Counted from the whole stretch's first letter, positions 10,091 through 63,283 are shown. The stretch is 63,999 nucleotides of DNA, filler included, from Stramenopiles sp. TOSAG23-3 (GCA_900128585.1; 3 parts of 3 records of this genome joined end to end with filler, not necessarily neighbours in it), one strand, 5' to 3'. Notes: generated by a model from the sequence alone, not told the origin. Numbers and translations are program-made.

Positions 10091-11632
<1,542 letters not shown>

Positions 11633-12297: not shown

Positions 12298-13686
12298 ATG
12301 CCAAGAGAGATTATTACGCTTCAGGTGGGCCAGTGCGGGAACCAAGTTGGCTCAGAGTTTTGGAAGAAATTATGCCAAGAGCACGGGATAAGCAAAGAGG
12401 GGCAACTTGAAGATTTTGCCACTGCAGGGAACGATAGAAAAGACGTCTTCTTTTACCAAGCCGACGACGAGCACTACATTCCGCGTGCCCTTTTGATGGA
12501 CTTGGAGCCGCGAGTACTCCACTCCATCCAAAACTCCGACTACAGGCACCTGTTCAACCCAGAAAACTTTTTCATCGCCCCGGAAGGTGGGGGCGCCGGT
12601 AACAACTGGGCGTCCGGGTATGCCCAGGGGGAAAAGTTACACGAGGATCTCATGGAGATGATCGACCGCGAAGCGGACAATAGCGACAGTTTAGAAGGTT
12701 TCCAACTCTGCCACTCCATTGCTGGTGGTACGGGTTCTGGCATGGGTTCCTACCTGTTGGAAAACCTGAACGACCACTTTCCGAAGAAACTCATTCAGAC
12801 TTACTCTGTGTTTCCCAACACCGATGCGTCGCAGAGTGACGTCGTCGTCCAGCCCTACAACTCCCTCTTGACGTTGAAGCGCCTAACGTTGAATGCAGAT
12901 GCCGTGGTTGTCCTGGACAACACTGCGCTCAACCAAATTGCGGTGGACCGGCTTCGGATTCCGAACCCCTCGGTTGGCCAGTTGAACTCGTTGGTCAGCA
13001 CCGTTATGGCAGCGAGCACGACCACCCTGAGATACCCGGGGTATATGAACAACGACTTGATTGGCCTGGTAGCGAGCCTGATCCCTACGCCCCGCATGCA
13101 TTTTCTGATGACCGGGTACACGCCGATGACCACGACAGACAAAGTGAGCCGCGTTAGGAAGACGACCGTGCTGGACGTCATGAGGCGGCTGTTGCAGCCG
13201 AAGAACATTATGGTTTCCAGCAACATTCGGAAGGGTTGCTACGTATCAATTCTAAACATTATTCAAGGCGAAGTAGACCCGACCCAAGTTCATAAAAGTT
13301 TGCAGCGTATACGGGAGCGAAAGCTTTGTCGCTTCATACCGTGGGGACCTGCTAGTATTCAAGTGGCGTTGTCCAAACAATCTCCCCACATCGAGCACCA
13401 ACATAAAGTAAGCGGTCTTATGCTTGCAAACCACACAAGCGTTGCTGGCTTGTTCGCCCGCACGTTGAAACAGTACGACACTCTGCGGAAACGGAACGCT
13501 TTCCTTGAAGTCTACCGCAAGGAGCGAATGTTTCAAGACGGCCTGGAAGAGTTTGACAGTGCGCGAGAAATTGTAAATTCTGTTCGAGAAGAGTACATCG
13601 CGTGCGAAAAGGCGGACTACATCAATTACGGGGAGAACCAACTAGCAATGTCAGCTGCGAGCAATGAAAGCGCGGGAATGTCGTGA
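12298..13686 (+). CDS. TUBG1: Gamma-tubulin
   Basis: [50 protein letters not shown] and [14 protein letters not shown] are gamma-tubulin signatures. Confidence 0.98.
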
Positions 13687-13933
13687 GCTCCGTCCTGCTC
13701 TGGCCCAGGGCATGCGACACAAACGTACACCACGCACGCTGTAAAAAGGGAGAAGAGAAATATTTATAATTTTTAAGTCTTACAAAGTAGATTCATGTGT
13801 GTGTAAAAAATTAAACAAGGAAGAGATAAAAAAGAGAACAATGTTATATTTTAAACTGGAGGATAAAACACGAATTCAAGCCCTTTTCTTTTTATTGTGA
13901 GCGTTGTAATTTCGTACAATTTGTACAAAGTAA

Positions 13934-15148
13934 CTAGCCGCGCTTCATACGCGACCGTCGCATCTCCATTTTCCGCTCTTGCGCTCTCATTTTTTTCTCG
14001 GCCTGTGCCCTTACGGCCAAAATATCTTCTTCTTGCAACTCTTCCAGAAATTCGTACACGATTTTCATGAACTGGTGCGATACCTCTGGGCGTGCCAATT
14101 TTCCATAGTTATCCGTATTGCTCTCCCCAACAAATTCCTGTATCAAAACTTTCGCCTCGTCTAGCCCTTTCGCCCGGTAAAACTCGGGTTCAATCATCAT
14201 AAAGATGGACAGGCCGACCGCATGCTGCAACTCCCTGGCCCCCTCGCGGCTGCACATCAACGTGAAGTAAATGTCGAAAACGTGCAGCGCCGTGTCTCGC
14301 GGGAGGCAGCCGGCGAAAAGCTTCTGAAACCACTGGAAAGTAAAGGCATTAATGTACATTGTCACTTCTTCCTCACCGCGAACGTGCGGGAATTCCAGCA
14401 ACGTTTTGGGTATTTTAGGGATCTTTTCCTTCAGCAATTTCGTGAACACCTCGATCTCAATCCTCGCCCCCTCCAGGCCATGGGTAAAATAGTCCTCAAG
14501 CGACACTTCGCAAATTATAGTAAATGCCCAGTACGCGTGCTCATCGTCCAGAACACCAATCAAAATGTGAGCTATTGCATCCATGCCCTGGACGAAGATC
14601 TCTTGCCCGTACTTCGGGTTCTTGTTGCCAACTACGAACGTGAGCAGCAGTTTGATCAAACGGTCGTTGTCGATTTGTTGGGAACGGTCTAAATCTAACT
14701 TTATTTGGTGAATCGCTTTATATACAGGGGCGCTCAGCCCTTCTTTCGACTGCTCGCGGTCCAAGTAGCTGGTGGCCGCGCCGTTGCCGTCGCCGTCCAT
14801 TGTGTCTGAATAGGTTCGAAAAATATCCAAGACTGTCCCCTCGACAAACTGACTGGCCTCTGCGTACACGTTGTCGTTCCAGGTCTGCGGATGTTCGTCG
14901 TGCAACTCTCCTTTCGCTTCGTCCACGACTCGCTCCCACAGCCGCTTTCGGTGAGCAACAGGGAAGCCACCCGGCCGCTGCACCCCCGACTTCAACGTAT
15001 CTATGCTAAATCCCGCCGTCTTTACGTATTCCCAATAGTTGACGGATTCCAGCTCAATTTTATACTCTTGGACGTTGGACCCGTCGCGAACCTTATCGTT
15101 CCCCGGCTCCTCCTTACGGCCTCCACCACATATTGCAAACCAAGACAT
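13934..15148 (-). CDS. Rab-GAP TBC-domain protein
   Basis: HRKRLW, IHQIKLDLDRS (arginine finger), FVQGMDAIAHIL (glutamine finger), FQWFQKLF..CLP..TALHVFD. Confidence 0.85.
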   Translation of the reverse strand: MSWFAICGGGRKEEPGNDKVRDGSNVQEYKIELESVNYWEYVKTAGFSIDTLKSGVQRPGGFPVAHRKRLWERVVDEAKGELHDEHPQTWNDNVYAEASQFVEGTVLDIFRTYSDTMDGDGNGAATSYLDREQSKEGLSAPVYKAIHQIKLDLDRSQQIDNDRLIKLLLTFVVGNKNPKYGQEIFVQGMDAIAHILIGVLDDEHAYWAFTIICEVSLEDYFTHGLEGARIEIEVFTKLLKEKIPKIPKTLLEFPHVRGEEEVTMYINAFTFQWFQKLFAGCLPRDTALHVFDIYFTLMCSREGARELQHAVGLSIFMMIEPEFYRAKGLDEAKVLIQEFVGESNTDNYGKLARPEVSHQFMKIVYEFLEELQEEDILAVRAQAEKKMRAQERKMEMRRSRMKRG

Positions 15149-52393: not shown

Positions 52394-54538
52394 ATGTTGT
52401 CAAAGTTACAGACGGCTGCGACGGTTTCGACGTTTGGGACCGCCCGCCGTGCATTTACTGCAGCTGCCGCCGGAGGAGAGGACGGGATGTTTAAGAAAAT
52501 ATTGATCGCTAATCGTGGAGAAATTGCATGCCGTGTGATAGAAAGTGCAAAGAGAATGGGCATACAGACGGTTGCGCTGTATAGCGACATTGACCAAAAT
52601 TCCAAGCATGTCTCGTTGGCGGACGAAGCGTACTACGTTGGACCCAACCCAGCCAGTGAGTCGTACTTGCTCGGGGACAAGATTCTAGAGATTTGCAAGC
52701 AATCTGGCGCGGAGGCAGTCCATCCAGGGTATGGATTTTTGAGCGAAAATGCAGGGTTCAGTGAGGCCTGCGCTAGCAATGGGATAAAATTCATCGGCCC
52801 CCCTGCCAGTGCCATCGTCGATATGGGCAGCAAGAGCGCGTCGAAGGATATTATGATTGCCGCCGGCGTGCCGGTCACCCCGGGCTACCACGGCGAGGCC
52901 CAGGATCTCGAAACCCTGAAATCGGAGGCCCGAAAAATGGGATACCCGGTCATGATTAAGGCGGTTCTGGGGGGGGGTGGAAAAGGCATGCGCGTAGCCT
53001 TGACTGAGGACGTCTTCGAGGAGAACCTGGACGGTGCACGGCGCGAGGCCATGAAGTCGTTTGCGGACGACCGCGTGTTGATCGAACGTTTCTTGGTAAA
53101 GCCCAGGCACGTTGAGCTGCAAGTCTTTGCCGACGAACATGGAAACTGCGTTCACCTTTACGAACGGGATTGCAGCGTTCAGCGAAGGCACCAAAAGGTT
53201 TTGGAAGAAGCCCCCGCACCCGGGATGACAAAAGAGCTGCGCGATCGTATGGGCACTGCCGCGGTCAACGCTGCGAAGGCGGTCGGCTATGAAGGGGCGG
53301 GAACCGTTGAGTTCATGCTGGATGACGATGGAGAAAGCTTCTACTTCATGGAAATGAACACTCGCTTGCAGGTCGAACACCCTGTGACGGAGATGGTCAC
53401 TGGGGTCGACTTGGTCGATTGGCAGCTGCGCATCGCAGCAGGCCACCCCCTGCCAATGTCCCAAGACGAAATCCCCCTCACCGGGCATGCCATCGAAGCA
53501 AGAGTGTATGCTGAAAACCCCGAAAACGAATTCCTGCCAGCCAGTGGTCCGGTGGCGTTCATGGATTTGCCAGACCACGTGTCGTTTAAGAACGGGGACA
53601 TTCGAATCGATTCTGGGGTACGCGAAGGCGACGATGTTTCCATATTTTATGACCCAATGATTTCCAAACTGATCGTCAAGGGTAATGACCGGGACGAGGC
53701 GTTGCGACTCCTCGACCAGGCGCTTAAAAACTACCGTGTTGTTGGCCTGCCAACGAACATCGAATTCTTGAGGAAAACGGCATCTCACCGGGCCTTTCGG
53801 GAGGCGGAGCTAGACACGAACTTTATCGAGAAGAACTACGACGAACTGCTCCCAGTCGCCCAGCCGACCCCAGACCGTGTTCTTGTTTTGGCTGCCCTTG
53901 CCCGGTTGCTTGAAGAAGCCGAAAGCCTGAGCTCCAACGCGTCGCCGTGGGGCAACGTAGCCGGTGCAGGTGCAAGGTTCACGGGGGAAGGCGGACGAGT
54001 GAGAACGTTAAACTTCACGGGAAACAACGGTAGTGAAGACCTTTCGGTTGCGGTAAAGTATTTTCCCGGGAGTGACGGGGATGAGGTCAAGTTTTCGGCC
54101 GATGTTGGTGGAGAAAGCGACGTTGTCGTCCGGGGACGGCTCGTAGGCAAGTCAAAGATCCTTGCATTCTTTGGGAAAGAACGCGTCACTGCAACTGTCA
54201 ACCGGCACGGGGATACGTTCTCTGTTTTTTGTGACCAAGGTGATTTCAAGCACGTTTATAACGTCGATGTGGCGCCCCTTGACTTGGGCGATGACTCGGG
54301 CGCAAAAGGGAAGTTGAACGTTTTGACACCAATGCCTGGCACGGTCATTAAAGTCATGGTTGGCAAGGGGGACTCGGTGGCGAAAGGTGAGCCTATGATG
54401 ATTTTGACTGCAATGAAAATGGAGCATATTATACGAGCCCAAGCTGATGGGACGATTGCAAGCGTTGGTTACGGGGAAGGGGACTTTGTCGAAGATGGCA
54501 AAGTTCTCATCTCATTTGTTGATGAAGACGAGGAGTAG
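52394..54538 (+). CDS. MCCC1: 3-methylcrotonyl-CoA carboxylase alpha subunit, mitochondrial
   Basis: KILIANRGEIACRV, HPGYGFLSENA, MGSKSASKDIM..AGVP..GYHG (MCC-like), ERDCSVQRRHQK, EMNTRLQVEHPVTE, biotin site AMKME. Presequence MLSKLQ...RRAFT. Confidence 0.88.
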   Translation: MLSKLQTAATVSTFGTARRAFTAAAAGGEDGMFKKILIANRGEIACRVIESAKRMGIQTVALYSDIDQNSKHVSLADEAYYVGPNPASESYLLGDKILEICKQSGAEAVHPGYGFLSENAGFSEACASNGIKFIGPPASAIVDMGSKSASKDIMIAAGVPVTPGYHGEAQDLETLKSEARKMGYPVMIKAVLGGGGKGMRVALTEDVFEENLDGARREAMKSFADDRVLIERFLVKPRHVELQVFADEHGNCVHLYERDCSVQRRHQKVLEEAPAPGMTKELRDRMGTAAVNAAKAVGYEGAGTVEFMLDDDGESFYFMEMNTRLQVEHPVTEMVTGVDLVDWQLRIAAGHPLPMSQDEIPLTGHAIEARVYAENPENEFLPASGPVAFMDLPDHVSFKNGDIRIDSGVREGDDVSIFYDPMISKLIVKGNDRDEALRLLDQALKNYRVVGLPTNIEFLRKTASHRAFREAELDTNFIEKNYDELLPVAQPTPDRVLVLAALARLLEEAESLSSNASPWGNVAGAGARFTGEGGRVRTLNFTGNNGSEDLSVAVKYFPGSDGDEVKFSADVGGESDVVVRGRLVGKSKILAFFGKERVTATVNRHGDTFSVFCDQGDFKHVYNVDVAPLDLGDDSGAKGKLNVLTPMPGTVIKVMVGKGDSVAKGEPMMILTAMKMEHIIRAQADGTIASVGYGEGDFVEDGKVLISFVDEDEE

Positions 54539-55657: not shown

Positions 55658-57176
55658 TTTGAAATATAGGTTATCGTTTGTTTTGTTATGTTTCTTTTTT
55701 CTTATTTCTTTTGTTGCTTCTTTGAATTGTTATCGGGGGAAGCTAAAAAGTTTATCATTTGTCCGCATCAGACCAAACGCTTCTACCGTACACGAACACA
55801 AACGGAACGAAGAATAAAGTCGAAGAAATTAATGTAATTAAAAAATGAGTGTGTTTGTTTTTCTTTTCTTCTTCCTTATGATGTGTTCATATAAATAAAA
55901 TAAAAAACTACAGCTGTAATCTAACTTTCCTTCTTTCTTCATGATTTGATGATAGATTATGTTTTATAGAATATACATTGAATAGCATTAATATTATAAT
56001 AAAATCAATGCTGTGATTATACTATTTATATATTTAATAGGTTAATAATATTGGAGAATGCGGAGGTCTTTTTCATTTTTTTGAGAAGATTGAACAAAAT
56101 GACTGGACAGGGGATCTTTATTCAATGCTATTAAGGCTAACATATTTAATAATACTTATCAATACATTGAATAGTATTAAATAGAACAAAATAGGTCGGA
56201 TTACAACCATAAGAAAATTATTCGATTATTCGTCCATAATAGATATACCATTGAATCGTATTTTGATTAAATAGGGTATTGTATCGTATTCTAAAAGTAT
56301 AATATTCGTGTTTGAAAAATGACTGGCTGTGAAGGGTTTCTGATGCTGTGTTATGAAATTGCAAAGAGAAAACGATGTCAACGAGCACTTTCCCCCCATT
56401 ATTTGTACAGTAATAATATATAGAAGGGACAAACCCTTGTTATAACTACTATATCTATCTATTTATAACAAAATGTACATATTATGTATAAACAAGTACA
56501 ATTATATATATAATTTAGAATATAAAATACACCTATTATATTTATACTTTATAGTTTTAACATACATGGATACAACCCTAATTGAACCCCCATATAATAG
56601 AGAAAGAAGAGGGGGGCGGGGGGCGGCGGGGGTGATTTTATAGTCCTGTTCAGGTTTTTTTACTATAATAATAATACCAGGTAACCGTACCACCAGGTAT
56701 TATATATTAATAATACGAGGAGTCGTCGTCTCTACTACCTGTATTAATACCGGTATAATAGTCCACTAATACCTGTATCCTCCCAACAAGACGAGGGAAT
56801 AATAATAAATAATTATAATAGTTAGTCTTCTTACAGTACCCAGGTACCGTATTATTATTCCAATTATATATTACAGCATTACAGCAGTATTATTTATTTA
56901 TTTTCGCACACATTTTTTATTATTATTATTTTTCATCATCATCCTTTTTTTATTATTATTACTTTCAACTTCTACTCCGCATGTCCCATTCCCCATTACA
57001 TCCCCCGACTTAAATATCTTATCCGGCGGTGTTTGTAGTAGAAGAAGAATTTCTACACCCGTGTCGTTCTCCATAGACACAGCTACTGTGTGTGGTTGGA
57101 ACATTGTGAAAGCGAATATTTATTTTTAAGACAAATCGCCACCGCGCTTTCCTTCACTGCTGAAAAGCTTGTCCAC

Positions 57177-58676
57177 ATGCGTACTGCAGTCGCAAGAATT
57201 TTCGCGTTTCAAAACTCTAGAATTGGAGCACCTTCGGTTCGAACTGCGAATAGGGTCCTTATGTCAACCGTTAGTGTTATTGGTACTCAGCTCGAATGTG
57301 CTGGGTGTGGACATATAGAGGATGGGCTCGCGAATATTTTGTTTAAATGCCCGAATAGCGAGAGCAGCCCTGAGTGCGACCACGTGTTGGCACCCAAAAC
57401 CCCTGGAAAGGACTGTACTGCAACTTTGCAGAACGGGTGCACGTTCCCTGCAGAGGAGATCAACGAAATACCCTTCCTGCGGTACCGTGCTTTGCTATAC
57501 CCTTACCGCATTGCAATCGCAAAGGGGATGTCGGATGAAGTGTACGTGAACATTATCCAGGACTTGAACAACGAGCTAGTCGCCGTTGGTGGCACCGGCT
57601 TTACCGAAACGCCGCTGCTGTGGAACAACGAGCTGAACAGTTTCGTAAAAAATGAGACTCTCAATGTGGCCCAGTCCCACAAAGCCCGTCACCTGTTTAA
57701 CCTGATGTCCTATTTGCTTGTCATGTCTTATGGGGAACAGGGTGTGGGGGGCGGGTTGCGCAATAGACGGTTGGCCGTAGCCAGCTGTGGCAATGCTGGC
57801 TTGGCGGCGGCGACCGTTGCCGCCGCTGCAAAATGGCCCATTGACGTTTGCATCCCCCCAGATGCCGAGCCCGCCGTCGTTGAACAGCTCCATCATTTGG
57901 GAGCTAGCGTGCACATTTGTCGCCGTGATGCAGATTTTGTCGAGACTAGCCTTGGCAAAATATCGTCAAAGGGCGAGGCCGACCCCACGCTTGCAGTATT
58001 TAAGAATTTAGTAAAAGACCATGGAAGCATCCCTTTCAGTGTCCAAGGCTCCGAATGTGGGTTAGGGGTCGAGGGATCCCAGACAATTGCATGGGAGGTG
58101 CTGGAAGCAATGCAGCGGGACTTTCATGATTCCAAGTCGCCCGTGGAAAACTCTACGATAGAGAACGTTTTCATCCAAGTGGGCGGGGGGGCTCTGGGCT
58201 CTGGGATGATTCAGGGGTTCCAGCGTGCGTTGGATGGGGAGCTAGAACAAGTGAATCCCACCCTTGGGTCGAATGTAATCAGGTCGTTGCCGAAACTCTT
58301 TTGTATTCAGCCGGTAGGGTGCGGGCCGTTGAAGCGAGCACTTGACGAAATGAAAAAGAACGACATTACCAACGGCAAAACGGCAGCAAAAGACAGGGCA
58401 ACGTACATGTACCCCTGGGAAAATCCTCACTCCATAGCGCATGGTATTTTGGACGATGAAACCTACGATTGGTTGTCCTTGGTGGACGGAATGATTTCGA
58501 CGGAGGGGGGGGCTTTGCTTGTGGACGATGACAGTATTTGTGAGGCAAAGAAATTCGCTGAGGAACAGTTCGGTTTGAACCCTTGCCATACTGGTTCGGC
58601 TGGGTTGGCGGGTTTGATGAAGAACCGAAAGGAGGGGGTCAGTTTGGTAGTATTAAGTGGCCTTGATCGATCGTAA
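57177..58676 (+). CDS. Threonine-synthase-like PLP-dependent enzyme (fold type II) with presequence
   Basis: N-terminal CAGC...CPN...DH putative Zn site; TPLLW; PLP-lysine motif KNETLNVAQSHKARH; ASCGNAG; QVGGGALGSG; GSAGLAG; VLSG. The ATG at 57177 starts an Arg/Ser/Ala-rich leader with no acidic residues. Confidence 0.8.
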   Translation: MRTAVARIFAFQNSRIGAPSVRTANRVLMSTVSVIGTQLECAGCGHIEDGLANILFKCPNSESSPECDHVLAPKTPGKDCTATLQNGCTFPAEEINEIPFLRYRALLYPYRIAIAKGMSDEVYVNIIQDLNNELVAVGGTGFTETPLLWNNELNSFVKNETLNVAQSHKARHLFNLMSYLLVMSYGEQGVGGGLRNRRLAVASCGNAGLAAATVAAAAKWPIDVCIPPDAEPAVVEQLHHLGASVHICRRDADFVETSLGKISSKGEADPTLAVFKNLVKDHGSIPFSVQGSECGLGVEGSQTIAWEVLEAMQRDFHDSKSPVENSTIENVFIQVGGGALGSGMIQGFQRALDGELEQVNPTLGSNVIRSLPKLFCIQPVGCGPLKRALDEMKKNDITNGKTAAKDRATYMYPWENPHSIAHGILDDETYDWLSLVDGMISTEGGALLVDDDSICEAKKFAEEQFGLNPCHTGSAGLAGLMKNRKEGVSLVVLSGLDRS

Positions 58677-59976
58677 CGCATCGCTAGCTTTTTAAAAGTT
58701 TATAATTAATACGCTGTAGCATGTAAATACAATTAAGGAGATTTAGGAATAATAGTTTTATCCTTTTCCGCAGTATTGAGTATTGTGCACATTACGGAGA
58801 AAGGTGGGGCAAGGCCACAGTAAGAGTATGTAATAAGTACGGTACCAATAAGGCCGGTGTAATAAATAGAAAGAAGGGACACTGTCCTTATTATACTGTA
58901 AATTTTATATCCATCAAGGGCCAAAAAAATAGAAGAATAATAATAAAATAATAATAATACAGTATATAATACAACAAAAACAAAATATTGAAGAAGAACA
59001 ATAACCACGAACGGGTGGTGCTGGTGCCATGTAAACTGTAAACCATAAAAAAAAGATTCATTTTTTCTGCTGATGGAAGCCAAACGTAAGGTATTGTATA
59101 CATTATTACGTATATATATATAGATAGGGAGAGGAAGTCTATATGCTGTGTGTATATTTATGGAGAAATACGTGTCGTTTCGCGAATAAAGTGCATGCGC
59201 CTTAATAATTGTGGCTTATTTCGCCCACGGGTTCAATTTTTCAATTTTCGTTCTTTACCCCTTTCCTTCCCCTATTTTTATCCCAGTTAAAATGATGCTG
59301 AATTATAAATAAGGTTTAAATAAGATTAAAACTAGTTTCTTCTCTCTTCATTATACAACATATCCTTAATAAAGAAAGAGAAGCTTATCGAAAACAATTG
59401 AATCCTTTTTGAGTTTATTTCAGTTCTATTTATATGTATGCACGTCAGATACACCTTCCTTATTAAAATAGATAGGGTCAATACTCCTAGTGTACTTTAA
59501 TGGTGGTAGTCTAATGATGAACGGATGGGTGGTGGATTTTGTGGTTGTTGTGTTCGATCAGTGTTCGTTAATTTATTAAAATAATATACAAAACAGCATG
59601 AAAGTACCCTGGTACGGTAGTGTTATTATTTATATATAGCTAGATAGGAGGAGGGGGGCTACCACCACCAAATAATAATAAAATTAAAAAAAAATAAAAA
59701 AAATTTTTTTTTAAATAATAATAATAAAATTATACAACACAACAGTACCGGAGTGGAACCCGTACCTTGTAGTAGAAATAATAATGCTTCTGCTTTTTTT
59801 CCCTTTTTTTCCACCATTTACTTTGTGAATGTTATAATGGTATATCTAAACAAAATTTACATGTTTCACCTGGACAGCGAGGAGAAATTGTCTTTTTTAA
59901 GAAATACATACCAATCCTAAGTACCAAAAAGTTCAAACTCACAAATACTTACCAGCAACAACTTTCCGCACGAGGT

Positions 59977-62565
59977 ATGAACAGTTTCCTTCAAAAGGCA
60001 TGTCGAGCGTCGGGAAAGAAGGGCCGTTTGGGTAGCATCGCGCGTATCCCCAGAACGGGGTCCTCGGGCGCGTCCATTCGGTTTACCTCTGTGTCAAATG
60101 CTGCAAGATCAATCGGTCAGCTTGAGCCGGTGTCCTACCTCGAAACAACCTTCTCGCTGGAAGAACTGCAGAACACTAAATATACGGGCTATGACGTGTG
60201 CGACAGCAGCCCAATTTGCCACGACGTAGGAAATACCCCATTGGTGCACTTGGAAGACGAAATATATGCCAAACTAGAAGGGCACAATCCAGGGGGAAGC
60301 TTGAAGGACCGAACCATTTCGTCCATACTGCTCCACATGTTTGAAGAAAAAAAGTTGCGGCCGTCTGGGGAGACCATTTGCCTCGTTACGTCAGGCAGTG
60401 CAGGTGTCTCGCTCCGAAAGGTTCAGCAGGACTTGACGAAACTTGGATTGCTTGACTTCAACGTCGTCGTAGTAATACCAAAAGCGTACTGCAGCAAGAC
60501 TGCCCCGAGCGCATTGGCATCGAAAGTGCCGGGCAGTATTTTTGAGGACGTGGGCGGGCGACAGGCGCAAGTTGCCGTCGAGGACGACAATAAGCCTCGG
60601 AACCGCTTTGACCTGATATTTGCGGACGGTGTGTTCATAGACGTCTTGGCAGAGTACGAAGCCCACGCCAAGGAGTTGGGCTGGAGCATGTTGGAACAGC
60701 ACTACGATGCAAACTCGATGAAGGGTCACCGCAGCACTGCGAAAGAGATCATGATGCAGTGCCCAGATGTGACTGACATCATCGTTTCGACCGGAACAGG
60801 GGCCACGGCGGCCGGCCTTCGAAATTTCATGCCTGACCACGTCCGAGTCCACTCGCGCCCAGCAGAGTCTGGGACGATCGATGGACTCACGAACGTGCAA
60901 CGCTACAACAATTTTTGTGATTCCTCCCGTCTGGTAGGATATAATGACTGTGTCTTTGACAAAGCGCATGCGGAGGACGCTCAGAAAGACTTGGAGGAGA
61001 AAGGAATCGTTGCTGGACCAAGCAGTGGCGCTACCTTGTGGTTGGCCCGCCAGCTTTCGCGTGAAAGAGTGGAGGAAAAAAGAAAATTTTTGGTCATTTG
61101 TGCGGACGGTAAACTTGAGGAAACGTCAAAATCCAGCAACGGGCCGCAGCACGCCCGTAGGTCTCAAGGCCTTTTGAGCAGCTGTGGACTCCAAAATCGG
61201 TCGCATGCAAGAATGTACTCTACTTCCCGAGCCGCATTTAGTGAACCGAGCGTCCCAGTGAAAGATTATATAGTAGTAGGTGGTGGCCCCGTCGGAGCCT
61301 CGACGGCATGGTTTCTGTCCGAAAAGGAAGTAGAAAACGAAAAGTCTATTTTGCTTATTCACGACCCCAAGAACAAGGGTGCGCACGAGGACTGGAGCCG
61401 CCTTGCGCGACTGTCTTTTGATGGCCCCATCGAAGAGATGGAGTTGTCGCGGCATGCTGTAGAATTGTTAGACTTGCTTGACGAAGTGCAGAGCATGAAT
61501 AGTGGTGCGCCAATCGTGCCGTTGCGGCCTGGAATGTTGTTTTTGGCCTCCCCTGGAACCAACATGGCTCGAGTGTGCGCGCACGGCGAGTCGTACGGGG
61601 ACAAATCGTTTGTCCCCGTAGACCCGAAAGATTTGGAGAGCTTGTTCCCTGGAAATAAATTTAGCCTTCCCCCAGATACCCTCTGCTGGACCCATCCGAC
61701 TGGGCTGTGCGTGTCTCCGTTGGAATTGGCCTCTGCAGCAAGAAAAACTGCTGAGGCGTATGGTGCGGAAATCATTGAAGGGCGTGCAACTATCGATGCG
61801 CTTCCTAGGTCCGAAGACAAAGTCAGGGTCACACTAGAGGATGGACGGGTCTTTGACACTCCAAAATGTTTCCTGTTCGCGGGAGCCCAAAACAAGACGA
61901 TTTTGAAGAATGCCATAGAGCGGGATCCCGCAGCAAATGCGGTCCTGGGCATACCAGAGTTCGACGAGACGTACATCACCGCGATCTCCACCATTCGATA
62001 CAAGCATGTGAATCACCCTGCCAACCCAGCGCCTGGGTCTGGGCATGTCCCCACTCCGATAACTCTTGGGCAATTGGAAATTCCCGGTTTGATTGATTTT
62101 CAGGCTAACTTTAGTATAGTAGCCGAAGAGTACGGCGATGTCTTGAAGACGCGTCTTTCTGGGTCAATCGGTAGCGAAACGATAGAGTCTGTTGCAGACA
62201 TGCACAACATTGGAGATGATCAAAATGCTGAAATGGCAGAGACATACCAAAACTTTTTTGGGAACCTTTTTCCGTTTTTGGACACGGAAGAACCACTCGA
62301 CTTCAACCGTTGCGTAACGTACAGAAACCACAACCCGAATTTTAGTGGCACGAGTATTCTTGAAAAGAAAGTCGGCGGCGCGTCCATTTTGACCACACCT
62401 GGTTGCTTTGGTGTAGGGGTTAAGTTTGGGCCGGCGCTCGGAGAAGCTGCCACTGCGCACGTGTTAAATAATGAAGTTCAAACGGGGATGAATGTGTTTC
62501 AATCAGGGTCGAAAGAATTGGAAACTGCAGACGAAGATGCAGACCGTGTTGAACGGGCCTGGTGA
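59977..62565 (+). CDS. Fusion of a cysteine-synthase-like PLP enzyme and a sarcosine-oxidase/DAO-family FAD oxidoreductase
   Basis: N-half: VGNTPLV, YAKLEGHNPGGSLKDR, TSGSAG, STGTGAT, AGPSSGA, ICADG. C-half: DYIVVGGGPVGASTAWFLS (FAD Rossmann fold), HEDWSRLAR, GVGVKFGPALGE. One uninterrupted 862-aa ORF. Confidence 0.85.
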   Translation: MNSFLQKACRASGKKGRLGSIARIPRTGSSGASIRFTSVSNAARSIGQLEPVSYLETTFSLEELQNTKYTGYDVCDSSPICHDVGNTPLVHLEDEIYAKLEGHNPGGSLKDRTISSILLHMFEEKKLRPSGETICLVTSGSAGVSLRKVQQDLTKLGLLDFNVVVVIPKAYCSKTAPSALASKVPGSIFEDVGGRQAQVAVEDDNKPRNRFDLIFADGVFIDVLAEYEAHAKELGWSMLEQHYDANSMKGHRSTAKEIMMQCPDVTDIIVSTGTGATAAGLRNFMPDHVRVHSRPAESGTIDGLTNVQRYNNFCDSSRLVGYNDCVFDKAHAEDAQKDLEEKGIVAGPSSGATLWLARQLSRERVEEKRKFLVICADGKLEETSKSSNGPQHARRSQGLLSSCGLQNRSHARMYSTSRAAFSEPSVPVKDYIVVGGGPVGASTAWFLSEKEVENEKSILLIHDPKNKGAHEDWSRLARLSFDGPIEEMELSRHAVELLDLLDEVQSMNSGAPIVPLRPGMLFLASPGTNMARVCAHGESYGDKSFVPVDPKDLESLFPGNKFSLPPDTLCWTHPTGLCVSPLELASAARKTAEAYGAEIIEGRATIDALPRSEDKVRVTLEDGRVFDTPKCFLFAGAQNKTILKNAIERDPAANAVLGIPEFDETYITAISTIRYKHVNHPANPAPGSGHVPTPITLGQLEIPGLIDFQANFSIVAEEYGDVLKTRLSGSIGSETIESVADMHNIGDDQNAEMAETYQNFFGNLFPFLDTEEPLDFNRCVTYRNHNPNFSGTSILEKKVGGASILTTPGCFGVGVKFGPALGEAATAHVLNNEVQTGMNVFQSGSKELETADEDADRVERAW

Positions 62566-62752
62566 TGAAGAAAAAGCGACAGGAAAGGGAGATACAAGAA
62601 GTAAGAATTCTTTTTTAAGAATTCCTAAATAACTTATTTATGTTTTTTAAAATTGGAAATTAGGAATACATGCCTATTAAACTTGTTTCCAAAGAAGTAA
62701 ATGTATGACATTAGGAGAAATTTGGCTTTTCTTTTTTCCTCTTTTTGCCAGT

Positions 62753-63283
62753 TCACTCTTTCAAACGAACAATGCATTCAACGGTGACTGCCGCTGGCAA
62801 CGACCCTGCACCTGTGCAAGTGCGTGCGTGCCTTCCTCTATCGCCGAGGCATTCTACGAGCATGTCCGATGCACCGTTAATTACCTTTCCGTGCCCAATA
62901 AAGTCCGGAGTCCCATTGACAATTCCGACTACTTTTACCATTTGTTCGACCTTGTCTAAGTCACCGTCACAATAGTGAGAAATCGTAGAAAGCAAACGAA
63001 GTGCGGCCTGACCCGCTAGTTTCTCAGCTTCTTCTGGAGTAACAGCAGCGTCAGCTCCCTCGCCAACTTTGCCGCGCACTGTTTGTGCATTTTCATCCTG
63101 TCCTACGTGATCTCCAATATACAACAAGTTTCCATGTCTTTGCCCTTTAACGTAGGACCAGACCGCATCCTGGTACTCTGGCAATACAATCCCCTTCAGT
63201 TTCATTAGCTTTTCTGTGTGAACCAGACGCCTGGAAGAGCCAGAGAGCAGCTTCGCGCCTACCTTGAGACTGCGTGTAAGCAT
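62753..63283 (-). CDS. Rid/YjgF/UK114-family protein (long Atu1372-like subtype) with presequence
   Basis: SYVKGQRHGNLLYIG, GKVG, GDLDKVEQMVKVVGIVN, VINGASD...GRHARTCTGAGSLP. Leader MLTRSLKVGAKLLSGSSRRLVH. Confidence 0.9.
   Translation of the reverse strand: MLTRSLKVGAKLLSGSSRRLVHTEKLMKLKGIVLPEYQDAVWSYVKGQRHGNLLYIGDHVGQDENAQTVRGKVGEGADAAVTPEEAEKLAGQAALRLLSTISHYCDGDLDKVEQMVKVVGIVNGTPDFIGHGKVINGASDMLVECLGDRGRHARTCTGAGSLPAAVTVECIVRLKE

What the first reader, a model, noticed from the sequence alone, without database searches (positions are those of the whole stretch)
57177..63283. Candidate mitochondrial amino-acid metabolic gene cluster: two PLP fold-II enzymes, a flavin amine oxidase and a Rid imine deaminase
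Seen: three adjacent, apparently intronless genes on one contig encode four catalytic domains (threonine-synthase-like, cysteine-synthase-like, sarcosine-oxidase/DAO-like, Rid). All three start with Arg/Ser-rich leaders lacking acidic residues. The rest of the window is a functionally random gene mix, so this coherence stands out. Established: fold-II PLP enzymes generate enamine/2-aminoacrylate intermediates, flavin amino-acid oxidases release imines, and Arg-containing Rid proteins hydrolyse such enamines/imines. The HART motif here appears to keep that Arg. Inference: an operon-like eukaryotic pathway that makes or degrades a non-proteinogenic, beta-substituted or N-alkylated amino acid in the mitochondrion, possibly of bacterial origin. 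The substrate cannot be read from the sequence.
Basis: partly seen in the sequence, partly recalled or inferred. Interest (0 to 1): 0.85.

Follow-up and report, generated by a model that had tools for sequence, protein, structure and literature searches.

The report
Conserved amino-acid enzyme cluster in marine protists
Three neighbouring genes of an uncultured marine protist encode four linked amino-acid enzymes, and the same genes stay neighbours or fuse in distant relatives, so they probably form one still-unknown pathway.

Summary
Window 57177-63283 carries three uninterrupted ORFs. They are a ThrC/dehydratase-like PLP enzyme (g1), a fusion of a CysK-like PLP domain with a sarcosine-oxidase-like flavin domain (g2), and an Arg-bearing Rid protein (g3). 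All three occur in marine metatranscriptome contigs. The window is nuclear DNA of a stramenopile close to MAST-4.

The linkage is not chance. Ten of 26 metagenome loci with a g2 relative have 1 kb or more beside the match, and all 10 hold a partner there. The partners are g1, g3, an orphan GNAT or a MetX-like O-acetyltransferase. Gene order and fusions differ between lineages.

It is not a transferred bacterial operon. None of 80 bacterial g1 loci or 80 bacterial g3 loci has the other genes nearby.

The flavin domain's nearest folds oxidise secondary amines. My best reading is an O-acetylated hydroxy-amino acid, PLP beta-replacement by an amine, flavin C-N oxidation, then Rid-assisted imine hydrolysis. 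This resembles SbnA/SbnB with a flavoprotein in SbnB's place. Substrate and product remain unknown. Mitochondrial targeting is inferred only.

The parts
57177..58676 (+). g1: ThrC/serine-dehydratase-like fold-II PLP enzyme, 499 aa. Arg/Ser-rich leader at residues 1-37. Conserved C41-x2-C44...C58...H69 cluster. PALP domain at residues 142-486. PLP lysine in the invariant SHKARH motif (K169).
   Evidence: ORF. Pfam PALP 3e-31. Best NCBIfam model is threonine synthase at 56.9 bits against a cut-off of 303. Invariant columns in the alignment. RNA contigs of runs X1 and X2 cover it, and one starts at 57165.
58677..59976 (.). A+T-rich spacer between g1 and g2, with short A/T-rich tandem repeats. No gene recognised.
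   Evidence: GC is 0.386 for 58001-60000. Tandem repeats. No Rfam match. The only ORF is a low-complexity 116-aa frame on the minus strand.
59977..62565 (+). g2: bifunctional fusion protein, 862 aa, including the stop codon.
   Evidence: ORF. An identical protein (P0001) is in public collections. RNA contigs from four studies cover it, and two of them end at 62593 and 62598.
59977..60117 (+). g2 leader, residues 1-47: 9 basic residues, no acidic residue, disordered in the model.
   Evidence: pLDDT is below 50 for residues 1-41.
60223..61101 (+). g2 CysK-like PLP beta-replacement domain, residues 83-375. Nearly invariant K110 in NPGGSxKDR, then TSGSAG, GTGAT and SSGA motifs.
   Evidence: Pfam PALP 1.1e-22. 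NCBIfam cysKM 80.2 bits against 344, and SbnA family 58.5 against 350. PDB sequence matches are cysteine synthases, cystathionine beta-synthase, O-ureido-L-serine synthase and SbnA. Conserved columns.
61102..61263 (+). g2 interdomain linker, residues 376-429. It is disordered and ends in a conserved basic 'RRxFSTS'-type stretch that looks like a relic presequence.
   Evidence: pLDDT is below 50 for residues 383-422. Consensus. Stand-alone relatives of the flavin domain carry Arg-rich N-termini.
61264..62562 (+). g2 flavin amine-oxidase domain of the monomeric sarcosine oxidase type, residues 430-862. GGGPVG dinucleotide motif. Invariant R475 and R478 in GAHEDWSRLARLSF. Invariant C779 in NRCVTYRN. 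Invariant K816 in GCFGVGVKFGP.
   Evidence: Pfam DAO 1.3e-15. A profile of the domain hits MTOX at 1.3e-5 and MSOX at 1.6e-4, with motif alignments shown. Foldseek finds MSOX at E 5e-21 with TM 0.77, followed by NikD, MTOX, iminodiacetate oxidase and flavin opine dehydrogenase. Invariant columns.
62566..62752 (.). Short spacer between the convergent 3' ends of g2 and g3.
   Evidence: g2 RNA contigs end at 62593 and 62598. g3 RNA contigs begin at 62724-62732 (table 8).
62753..63283 (-). g3: Rid-family (YjgF) imine/enamine deaminase-like protein, 176 aa. About 20-residue basic leader. Invariant Arg154 in HART. It is not the RidA type.
   Evidence: PF14588 at 39.1 bits is over its cut-off. PF01042 at 19 bits is under its cut-off of 27.3. 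PDB matches: 3d01 at 2e-20, and the Rid1 proteins PA0814 and ACIAD3089 at 1e-10. R154 is invariant. RNA contigs of X1, X2 and X10 cover it.

Best explanation
This is a real, expressed, evolutionarily maintained metabolic gene cluster in the nuclear genome of a MAST-4-like marine stramenopile. It encodes consecutive steps of one amino-acid pathway whose substrate is unknown. I put the functional linkage at about 0.85.

The core is g2, which fuses two enzymes. The CysK-type PLP domain should form a PLP-bound aminoacrylate from an O-activated hydroxy-amino acid, most likely O-acetylserine. In other lineages the activation is supplied by a MetX-like O-acetyltransferase that is fused or adjacent to g2. 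The domain would then add a nucleophile, most likely an amine, to give an N-substituted (secondary-amine) 2,3-diamino acid. The sarcosine-oxidase-type flavin domain then oxidises a C-N bond of that product to an imine. g3, a Rid1-like protein with the catalytic Arg, speeds hydrolysis of that imine, or of the enamine released by g1. The net result is a new amine plus a carbonyl compound.

This is the logic of SbnA/SbnB in 2,3-diaminopropionate synthesis, with a flavoprotein in place of the NAD enzyme. I put this specific chemistry at about 0.35.

g1, a ThrC/dehydratase-type PLP enzyme, acts before or after g2. In some lineages it is fused to an orphan GNAT and an AnmK-like kinase, which would acetylate or phosphorylate an intermediate.

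Shown here: domains, catalytic motifs, conserved linkage and fusions, and presence of all three genes in RNA-derived contigs.

Inferred: order of steps, nucleophile, product and mitochondrial location.
For: Domains and motifs.

Linkage, direct evidence on contigs:
- L001: [AnmK-GNAT, -][g2, +][g1, -].
- L002: g2 then g1, convergent.
- L021 and L024: g2 then g3, convergent as in the window.
- L015 and L011: g2 beside the GNAT.
- L006: g2 beside a separate MetX-like gene, 42% identical to the fused domain.
- L004, L005, L007 and L019: MetX fused to g2.
- Overall, all 10 of the 10 loci (of 26) that have 1 kb or more beside the g2 match hold a partner.

Linkage, indirect evidence:
- The homologues P0016, P0073 and P0207 share a longest-contig length of 12611.
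- The pairs at 10406, 6438 and 11001 do likewise.
- Consecutive gene numbers occur for MAST_4_protein_195/196 and g5422/g5423.
- The last 100 residues of g2 are 53-76% identical between these lineages, except L001 and L002 at 89%.
- None of the other 24 window ORFs tested has a match in those loci. The adjacency is therefore not general synteny, as far as the flanks can show.

Fusions that vary between lineages: PALP-DAO, MetX-PALP-DAO, stand-alone DAO, DAO-PALP and g1-GNAT-AnmK.

Secondary-amine chemistry. The top Foldseek hits are MSOX, NikD, MTOX, iminodiacetate oxidase, heterotetrameric sarcosine oxidase beta, proline dehydrogenases and flavin opine dehydrogenase. Primary-amine oxidases rank lower. 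The MSOX motifs GSHHGDTRIIRHAY and GHGFKF align with the invariant GAHEDWSRLARLSF and GVGVKF.

The SbnA reaction (O-phosphoserine plus glutamate gives the secondary amine ACEGA, on the way to L-Dap) was read in passages of PMC12414870.

The Rid Arg is invariant. Rid1-3 proteins with that Arg deaminate imines and 2-aminoacrylate in vitro (PMC5619798, passages).

Expression: RNA contigs of four studies cover g2. Two of them also cover g1 and g3, and a third also covers g3.
Against: No member of any of the three families has been characterised, and the nucleophile cannot be read from sequence.

No domain reaches the curated cut-off of any named NCBIfam enzyme, so no named activity can be transferred.

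The MetX-like domain scores close to true homoserine O-acetyltransferase: 315.7 bits against a cut-off of 331. O-acetylhomoserine is not a known CysK-type substrate.

This window itself has no MetX-like, GNAT or AnmK-like gene.

L007 has only the fused MetX. Its two downstream ORFs are unrelated.

Bacterial g1 relatives sit in catabolic clusters of the SsnA/YgfK/Xdh type, which favours a degradative role for g1.

Contig-length matches are indirect evidence of co-location. Many metagenome loci are too short to inform.

Contigs from RNA libraries show presence, not co-regulation.
Confidence: 0.6

Rival explanations
1. Catabolic or salvage pathway. The cluster breaks down an N-substituted or beta-amino alanine (2,3-diaminopropionate, an albizziin-like compound, an N-alkyl amino acid or a prey-derived amino acid) to pyruvate or 2-oxobutyrate plus ammonia. 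The flavin domain removes the N-substituent. g1 acts as a deaminating lyase that releases an enamine. g3 hydrolyses the enamine, as RidA-type proteins do beside threonine or serine dehydratases.
For: Bacterial g1 relatives lie beside a CysK-like gene (26 of 80 loci), SsnA-like amidohydrolases (23), Xdh-type molybdoenzymes (28), carbamoyltransferases (20) and YgfK-like proteins (9). These are the marker enzymes of the reductive uric-acid pathway, which ends in 2,3-diaminopropionate cleaved by a fold-II PLP lyase (abstract and sections 8-9 of 10.1101/2025.05.19.654654).

None of 5 such genomes has a canonical diaminopropionate ammonia-lyase over the cut-off, so the g1 type could fill that role.

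PDB relatives of g1 include serine dehydratases and racemases as well as threonine synthases.

A biotin carboxylase of the propionyl-/methylcrotonyl-CoA carboxylase alpha type lies 2.6 kb upstream.
Against: A MetX-type O-acetyltransferase that spends acetyl-CoA is fused or adjacent to g2 in 5 lineages, and a GNAT recurs. Both are hallmarks of biosynthesis, not breakdown.

g1 is only 44-46% identical to the aligned bacterial proteins, 34-41% over the best tblastn segments of the 80 loci, and lies on the far side of a long branch from them.

The CysK-like domain has no obvious role in a purely degradative route.
Confidence: 0.2
2. Sulfonate route. The CysK-like domain adds sulfite to O-acetyl- or O-phosphoserine to give cysteate. 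The flavin domain oxidises cysteate to the imine of sulfopyruvate, and g3 hydrolyses the imine. This would feed marine sulfonate pools such as sulfolactate and DHPS.
For: Weak matches to cysteate-synthase models: NF053679 at 1.3e-11 for g2 and TIGR03844 at 3.9e-4 for g1. Both are far below the cut-offs and cover short stretches that all fold-II enzymes share.
Against: The nearest folds of the flavin domain all oxidise secondary amines, not primary alpha-amino acids.

The cysteate-synthase matches are no better than those to ordinary CysK or ThrC models.

A full-text search for 'cysteate synthase', 'diatom' and 'DHPS' listed no paper holding the term 'cysteate synthase' among the 20 shown.
Confidence: 0.07
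3. Ordinary housekeeping enzymes (threonine synthase, cysteine synthase, sarcosine or pipecolate oxidase, RidA) that merely happen to be neighbours.
For: The names given by sources for homologues are 'threonine synthase', 'cysteine synthase' and 'RidA'.
Against: Scores are 5-6 times below the curated cut-offs for all these enzymes. g3 is below the RidA Pfam cut-off.

The flavin domain belongs to a small isolated family. Only 62 proteins reach E<=1e-10 among 1.84 billion representatives. Ordinary oxidases of this type appear only at about 5e-9 or weaker.

Linkage and fusions recur across lineages.
Confidence: 0.04

Closest known systems
SbnA/SbnB (and VioB/VioK, CmnB/CmnK) route to L-2,3-diaminopropionate in bacteria
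   Same: A CysK-type PLP enzyme adds an amino-acid nitrogen to a serine-derived aminoacrylate and makes a secondary amine (ACEGA). A second enzyme then oxidises the C-N bond so that hydrolysis releases a new amine and a 2-oxo acid (SbnA step read in PMC12414870; the SbnB step is recalled). The PLP domain of g2 matches SbnA in the PDB and in NCBIfam, though weakly.
   Different: The oxidising partner here is a sarcosine-oxidase-type flavoprotein fused to the PLP domain. It is not an NAD-dependent enzyme of the ornithine-cyclodeaminase type. Activation appears to be by O-acetylation (MetX-like), not phosphorylation. The genes are eukaryotic, and the extra partners g1, Rid, GNAT and AnmK-like kinase are present. 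The SbnA-family score is 58.5 bits against a cut-off of 350.
Monomeric sarcosine oxidase family (MSOX, MTOX/SolA, NikD, pipecolate oxidase)
   Same: Same fold (TM 0.77 to MSOX). The FAD motif, the Arg-containing GxHxxxxRxxR motif and the GxGxKF lysine motif all align.
   Different: About 16-18% identity in the structural alignments. The NCBIfam MTOX score is 45.6 bits against a cut-off of 257. The domain is about 60 residues longer, has conserved blocks of its own (ANFSIVAEEYGDVLKTRLSG, DFNRCVTYRN) and is fused to a PLP enzyme. Whether C779 carries covalent FAD is not shown.
Threonine dehydratase with a RidA paralogue (E. coli tdcB/tdcF), and flavin amino-acid dehydrogenases accelerated by Rid proteins (DauA with Rid2/Rid3)
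   Same: A Rid protein encoded beside enzymes that release enamines or imines. Rid proteins with the conserved Arg act on such products in vitro (PMC5619798). The tdc example is recalled.
   Different: g3 is not a RidA. Its closest characterised relatives are Rid1 proteins. The abstract of that paper says the Rid1-7 subfamilies occur only in prokaryotes, yet g3 belongs to a clade of 57 eukaryote-ranked sequences.
DcsE/DcsD of D-cycloserine biosynthesis, and fungal MetX-type serine O-acetyltransferases (recalled; no paper found in the library)
   Same: A homoserine-O-acetyltransferase homologue that acetylates serine, paired with a CysK homologue that adds an unusual nucleophile. O-ureido-L-serine synthase is among the PDB matches of g2.
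   Different: Those systems have no flavin oxidase, Rid or ThrC-like enzyme. The substrate of the stramenopile MetX-like domain is untested.
Eukaryotic metabolic gene clusters (fungal and plant clusters, nitrate-assimilation cluster)
   Same: Non-homologous enzyme genes of one presumed pathway are kept adjacent in a nuclear genome, with lineage-specific rearrangements and fusions.
   Different: This one is found in uncultured heterotrophic marine stramenopiles and in bolidophytes. The genes are separately transcribed, with convergent or divergent orientation, and the product is unknown.

Membership tests
CysK/CysM O-acetylserine sulfhydrylase (fold-II PLP beta-replacement) | PALP domain with a Schiff-base lysine and the phosphate- and carboxylate-binding loops | tested here: met
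   Pfam PALP 1.1e-22. K110, TSGSAG, GTGAT and SSGA are conserved in at least 90% of 17 sequences. The assignment of these motifs to their roles is recalled.
CysK/CysM O-acetylserine sulfhydrylase (fold-II PLP beta-replacement) | Score above the curated equivalog cut-off | tested here: not met
   cysKM 80.2 bits against 344. cysK 69.8 against 351. cysM 64.4 against 394.
SbnA family (TIGR03945) | Score above the curated cut-off | tested here: not met
   58.5 bits against 349.95.
SbnA/SbnB system | Partner is an NAD-dependent SbnB-type enzyme | tested here: not met
   The partner domains seen are DAO-type flavoprotein, ThrC-like, Rid, GNAT, MetX-like and AnmK-like. No SbnB-type domain appeared in the cluster genes or in the flanks scanned. 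A dedicated search for SbnB relatives was not run.
Monomeric sarcosine oxidase / MTOX family | DAO-type FAD fold closest to MSOX | tested here: met
   Pfam DAO 1.3e-15. Foldseek MSOX 2gb0 at E 5.4e-21 and TM 0.77 normalised to the target. The model has mean pLDDT 75.
Monomeric sarcosine oxidase / MTOX family | Score above the curated cut-off for a named enzyme | tested here: not met
   MTOX NF008425 at 45.6 bits against 257. soxA_mon at 16 against 480.
Monomeric sarcosine oxidase / MTOX family | Covalent 8-alpha-S-cysteinyl FAD and carboxylate-binding Arg/Lys | tested here: inconclusive
   R475, R478, K816 and C779 are invariant. The Arg and Lys motifs align with MSOX and MTOX. HMMER did not align C779 with the flavinylated Cys. 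The residue roles are recalled.
Threonine synthase | Score above the curated cut-off | tested here: not met
   The best model, NF006050, scores 56.9 bits against 303. thrC TIGR00260 scores 17.5 against 167.
Diaminopropionate ammonia-lyase (DpaL/YgeX) | Match to the family model | tested here: not met
   No DpaL model appears among the 11 NCBIfam matches of g1 at E<=0.01.
Rid (YjgF/YER057c/UK114) deaminases | Rid fold family and the conserved active-site Arg | tested here: met
   PF14588 at 39.1 bits against a cut-off of 35. R154 is invariant in 17 of 17 sequences.
RidA subfamily | Match over the cut-off to the RidA-type model PF01042 | tested here: not met
   19 bits against 27.3. No NCBIfam match.
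Rid1 subfamily | Closest characterised relatives are Rid1 proteins | tested here: inconclusive
   PA0814 and ACIAD3089 match at 1.1e-10. Table 3 of PMC5619798 lists them as Rid1. The best hit, 3d01 at 2e-20, is uncharacterised. No formal subfamily classification was run.
Eukaryotic metabolic gene cluster | Three or more non-homologous enzyme genes adjacent, with linkage kept across lineages | tested here: met
Eukaryotic metabolic gene cluster | Co-regulation of the members | tested here: inconclusive
   All three genes are found in the RNA-library contigs of two runs from two studies. Contigs cannot give expression levels.
Mitochondrial matrix proteins with a cleavable presequence | N-terminal extension that is basic, rich in hydroxylated residues and free of acidic residues | tested here: met
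   Extensions relative to bacterial homologues are seen. Several orthologues share the feature, but P0207, P0217 and P0073 lack a leader in their gene models.
Mitochondrial matrix proteins with a cleavable presequence | Positive call by a trained predictor, or experimental localisation | not testable with these tools
   No TargetP- or MitoFates-type tool was available.

The most novel reading that the evidence does not exclude
Marine stramenopiles assembled, within the eukaryotic nucleus, a biosynthetic gene cluster for an undescribed small nitrogen-rich metabolite. A candidate is an N-acetylated diamino acid that serves as a compatible solute, metal ligand or signal. The route would be a flavin-dependent analogue of the SbnA/SbnB reaction that has not been described. 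It would use the first eukaryotic members of a non-RidA Rid subfamily. Its PLP-flavin core has been exchanged with intracellular Legionellaceae.
Probability: 0.25. Interest if true: 0.85.

Novelty: new variant of a known kind. Interest (0 to 1): 0.7.

Why it matters
Conserved multi-enzyme gene clusters are rare in protists. This one lies in MAST-4-type flagellates, which are uncultured marine grazers, and in their algal relatives.

The cluster points to a pathway that standard annotation hides behind the names 'threonine synthase', 'cysteine synthase' and 'RidA'. It offers a PLP-flavin fusion enzyme family with no characterised member. It also offers a test case for what non-RidA Rid proteins do in eukaryotes.

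If the product is an abundant solute or a signal, it would add a compound and marker genes to studies of marine dissolved organic nitrogen.

Tried and rejected
Genome-wide searches for the missing MetX-like, GNAT and AnmK-like genes in this organism were therefore impossible.
- Pattern scans of bacterial genomes found nothing with the flavin-domain profile or with P0040. Only the scan with the alignment of permuted forms found one locus.
- The protein-atlas search gave only generic DAO clusters with scores of 0.85-0.86, below the level the tool calls meaningful.
- A PDB sequence search with the GNAT found nothing. NCBIfam gave only a 0.0016 match to an aminoglycoside acetyltransferase model, far below the cut-off, which I do not interpret.
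- Neighbourhoods of bacterial g3 relatives (FemAB-like, GDPD, ABC transport) gave no functional lead.
- I read passages of a paper that implicates a single-domain diatom CysK in BMAA formation (PMC12184485). It concerns an ordinary CysK, not this fusion, and I reject it as evidence for any product here.
- No RNA contig covered 58447-59993.
- No g1 or g3 relative was found in the 1.4-Mb Legionellaceae MAG. The MAG is incomplete, so this is not evidence of absence.
- Full-text searches found no description of this fusion or cluster. The terms and hits are (cysteine synthase, sarcosine oxidase, fusion protein, stramenopiles; 5 papers held 3 of 4 terms, none on this; 60 papers, 15 listed, none on this). 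Supplementary files could not be read and might hold gene lists that include these genes.

Full report
WHAT IS THERE

The region holds three uninterrupted ORFs:
- g1, 57177-58676 (+), 499 aa
- g2, 59977-62565 (+), 862 aa
- g3, 62753-63283 (-), 176 aa

Pfam gives a PALP domain for g1. It gives PALP (residues 83-375) plus DAO (from residue 430) for g2, and the Rid-type family PF14588 for g3. No domain reaches the curated NCBIfam cut-off of a named enzyme:
- g1: threonine synthase, 56.9 bits against 303
- g2: cysteine synthase, 80.2 against 344
- g2: SbnA family, 58.5 against 350
- g2: N-methyltryptophan oxidase, 45.6 against 257
- g3: no match at all

The names 'threonine synthase', 'cysteine synthase' and 'RidA' that sources give to homologues are therefore family-level labels only.

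Catalytic features are kept:
- The PLP lysines K169 (g1, invariant SHKARH motif) and K110 (g2, NPGGSxKDR) with their binding loops.
- The FAD motif and invariant R475, R478, C779 and K816 in the flavin domain.
- The invariant Arg154 of g3, in 17 of 17 sequences.

THE ORGANISM

The rest of the window encodes ribosomal protein S27e, WW/FKBP, cNMP-binding, LRR and DUF829 proteins. This is eukaryotic nuclear DNA.

The closest named relatives of the three proteins come from EukProt 'Stramenopile-MAST_4', from MMETSP transcriptomes, from Triparma species and from an EukProt record whose 'INCI' id prefix I take, from recall, to be Incisomonas. One more distant Rid relative is from Chromera. The source is thus a MAST-4-like marine stramenopile.

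Contigs from marine metatranscriptome libraries of four studies match at 99% identity or more. They cover g2 in all four runs, g1 in two and g3 in three. They show no joints, which fits intron-free genes over the covered parts. The g2 contigs end at 62593 and 62598, and the g3 contigs begin at 62724-62732. This is a weak hint of separate, convergent transcripts.

IS THE ADJACENCY MORE THAN CHANCE?

Yes. A scan of metagenome contigs with a g2 alignment gave 26 loci. Ten of them have 1 kb or more beside the g2 match, and all ten hold a partner there:
- L001: a GNAT gene that runs on into an AnmK-like domain (-), then g2 (+), then g1 (-)
- L002: g2 then g1, convergent
- L021 and L024: g2 then g3, convergent as in the window
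- L015: the same GNAT family
- L006: a separate MetX-like gene, 42% identical to the fused domain
- L004, L005, L007 and L019: a MetX-like domain fused to the N-terminus of g2

L011 shows the GNAT in a flank of only 360 bp. L007 has nothing recognisable beyond the fused MetX.

The lineages are distinct. The last 100 residues of g2 are 53-76% identical between loci, except L001 and L002 at 89%. None of the other 24 window ORFs tested matches these loci. The flanks are short, however, and the window ends 716 bp after g3.

Indirect support comes from the protein tables. Homologues of all three genes share a longest-contig length of 12611. Pairs share 10406, 6438 and 11001. Gene numbers are consecutive for MAST_4_protein_195/196 and for g5422/g5423.

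Fusions vary between lineages:
- PALP-DAO
- MetX-PALP-DAO
- stand-alone DAO
- DAO-PALP
- g1-GNAT-AnmK, about 1080-1110 aa

Repeated linkage together with changing order and fusion is the signature of a functional unit.

ORIGIN

g1 and g3 have many bacterial homologues.

None of the 80 best g1 loci has a g2 or g3 relative within 8 kb. None of the 80 best g3 loci has a g1 or g2 relative within 6 kb.

In quick maximum-likelihood trees, the rows I ranked as eukaryotic and the 80 bacterial rows fall on two sides of one branch. There were 30 such rows for g1 and 57 for g3, with SH-aLRT support of 99 and 100. Only some of those rows carry a eukaryotic source label. No donor can be named, and the root is unknown.

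The flavin domain is an isolated family. Against 1.84 billion representatives, only 62 proteins reach E<=1e-10, many of them fragments. After that, ordinary DAO-family proteins of about 400 aa appear from 5e-9 downward.

The only bacterial relatives found are permuted DAO-PALP proteins. One lies in a Legionellaceae MAG, in the arrangement LuxR | HAD | CysK-like PALP | DAO-PALP | LuxR. Ordinary bacterial genes and a eukaryote-like MATCAP gene lie beside it. No g1 or g3 relative was found in that incomplete MAG. Exchange between protists and their intracellular bacteria is plausible, but the direction is open.

The cluster was therefore assembled in eukaryotes, not inherited as an operon.

WHAT IT MOST LIKELY DOES

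An AlphaFold model of g2 has mean pLDDT 75. The leader and the linker are disordered. By Foldseek the model matches monomeric sarcosine oxidase best (E 5e-21, TM 0.77). Next come NikD, N-methyltryptophan oxidase, iminodiacetate oxidase, heterotetrameric sarcosine oxidase beta, proline dehydrogenases and a flavin opine dehydrogenase. Glycine oxidase and D-arginine dehydrogenase rank lower. All the top enzymes oxidise secondary amines of amino acids.

A profile search aligns the MSOX/MTOX motifs GSHHGDTR(I/L)IRHAY and G(H)GFKF with the invariant GAHEDWSRLARLSF and GVGVKF. By recall, these motifs carry the carboxylate-binding Arg and Lys.

The PLP domain belongs to the CysK/CBS/SbnA/O-ureidoserine-synthase group. 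The recurring MetX-like partner scores 315.7 bits against the MetX cut-off of 331. It would supply an O-acetylated hydroxy-amino acid. By recall, the DcsE/DcsD pair and fungal serine acetyltransferases are precedents for MetX homologues that feed CysK homologues.

Taken together, the most economical reading has four steps:
1. O-acetylation of a hydroxy-amino acid.
2. PLP beta-replacement by an amine, giving a secondary amine.
3. Flavin oxidation of a C-N bond.
4. Hydrolysis of the imine, helped by g3.

This is the logic of SbnA/SbnB (SbnA step read in PMC12414870), but with a flavoprotein.

Rid proteins that carry the Arg deaminate imines made by flavoenzymes and the 2-aminoacrylate made by PLP enzymes (PMC5619798). 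The nearest characterised relatives of g3 are the Rid1 proteins PA0814 and ACIAD3089 (Table 3 of that paper). The paper's abstract places the Rid1-7 subfamilies only in prokaryotes, so g3 is unusual for a eukaryote.

The role of g1 is the least clear. It is of the ThrC/dehydratase/racemase type and has a conserved Cys/His cluster near the N-terminus. In some lineages it is fused to a GNAT and an AnmK-like kinase. That suggests a phosphorylated or acetylated intermediate.

A RIVAL WORTH KEEPING

Bacterial g1 relatives sit next to a CysK-like gene and to SsnA-, YgfK-, Xdh- and carbamoyltransferase-type genes. These mark the reductive uric-acid pathway, which ends in 2,3-diaminopropionate cleaved by a fold-II PLP lyase (10.1101/2025.05.19.654654: abstract and sections 8-9). 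Five of five such genomes lack a canonical diaminopropionate ammonia-lyase over the cut-off.

g1 may therefore be a deaminating lyase for a beta-amino alanine, with g3 clearing the enamine. That would make the eukaryotic unit partly or wholly catabolic. The acetyl-CoA-spending MetX and GNAT partners argue the other way.

LOCATION

All three proteins start with basic leaders free of acidic residues. g1 and g3 extend beyond the start of their bacterial homologues. The Triparma MetX-PALP-DAO protein carries such a leader at its own N-terminus. The g2 linker keeps an 'RRxFSTS'-like stretch, and stand-alone DAO relatives have Arg-rich N-termini. This suggests a fusion of two proteins that were once targeted separately. 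Some orthologue models lack a leader.

Mitochondrial targeting is a reasonable inference, not a result.

VERDICT

It is too narrow in its parts list and unsupported on block transfer from bacteria.

I found no description of this fusion or cluster in print. Supplementary files could not be read.

Noticed in passing
window 52394-54538 (+): A 714-aa biotin carboxylase with a biotinyl domain, of the propionyl-/methylcrotonyl-CoA carboxylase alpha type, lies 2.6 kb upstream of g1 with only the S27e gene between them. It may be coincidence, or a link to 2-oxobutyrate/propionyl-CoA metabolism.
   Followed up: no
window 61102-61263 (g2 residues 376-429): The disordered linker between the PLP and flavin domains ends in a conserved basic 'RRxFSTS'-like stretch that resembles a mitochondrial presequence. 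Stand-alone relatives of the flavin domain have Arg-rich N-termini. This suggests a fusion of two separately targeted proteins.
   Followed up: partly
window 62551-62562 (g2 C-terminus): The C-terminal tetrapeptide ERAW is conserved in nearly all full-length g2 relatives. Its meaning is unknown, and it is not a classical peroxisomal signal.
   Followed up: no
L187 1-5871 (Legionellaceae MAG contig): A HAD hydrolase, a CysK-like PALP gene and a DAO-PALP fusion form a tight same-strand block. Two LuxR-type autoinducer-binding regulators bracket it. A eukaryote-like MATCAP tyrosine carboxypeptidase gene lies at 13432-14808.
   Followed up: partly
L027-L106 (bacterial loci around g1 relatives): A large bacterial family of about 430-aa ThrC-like PLP enzymes is usually preceded by a roughly 500-aa CysK-like gene. 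It often lies with SsnA-, YgfK-, Xdh- and ATCase-type genes in Pseudomonadota, Actinomycetota, Chloroflexota and Acidobacteriota. Five of five such genomes lack a canonical diaminopropionate ammonia-lyase. This may be an undescribed variant ending of the reductive uric-acid pathway.
   Followed up: partly
P0464, P0471, P0472; L001 2-760 (-): An AnmK-type (anhydro-N-acetylmuramic acid kinase family) domain in eukaryote-derived proteins is fused behind a GNAT and, in three proteins, behind the g1-type PLP enzyme. A kinase of this family in an amino-acid cluster is unexpected.
   Followed up: partly
window 57297-57383 (g1 residues 41-69): A conserved C-x2-C ... C ... H cluster lies ahead of the PLP domain and is shared by eukaryotic and bacterial members. 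It is probably a small metal-binding module, as in some archaeal-type threonine synthases (recalled).
   Followed up: no
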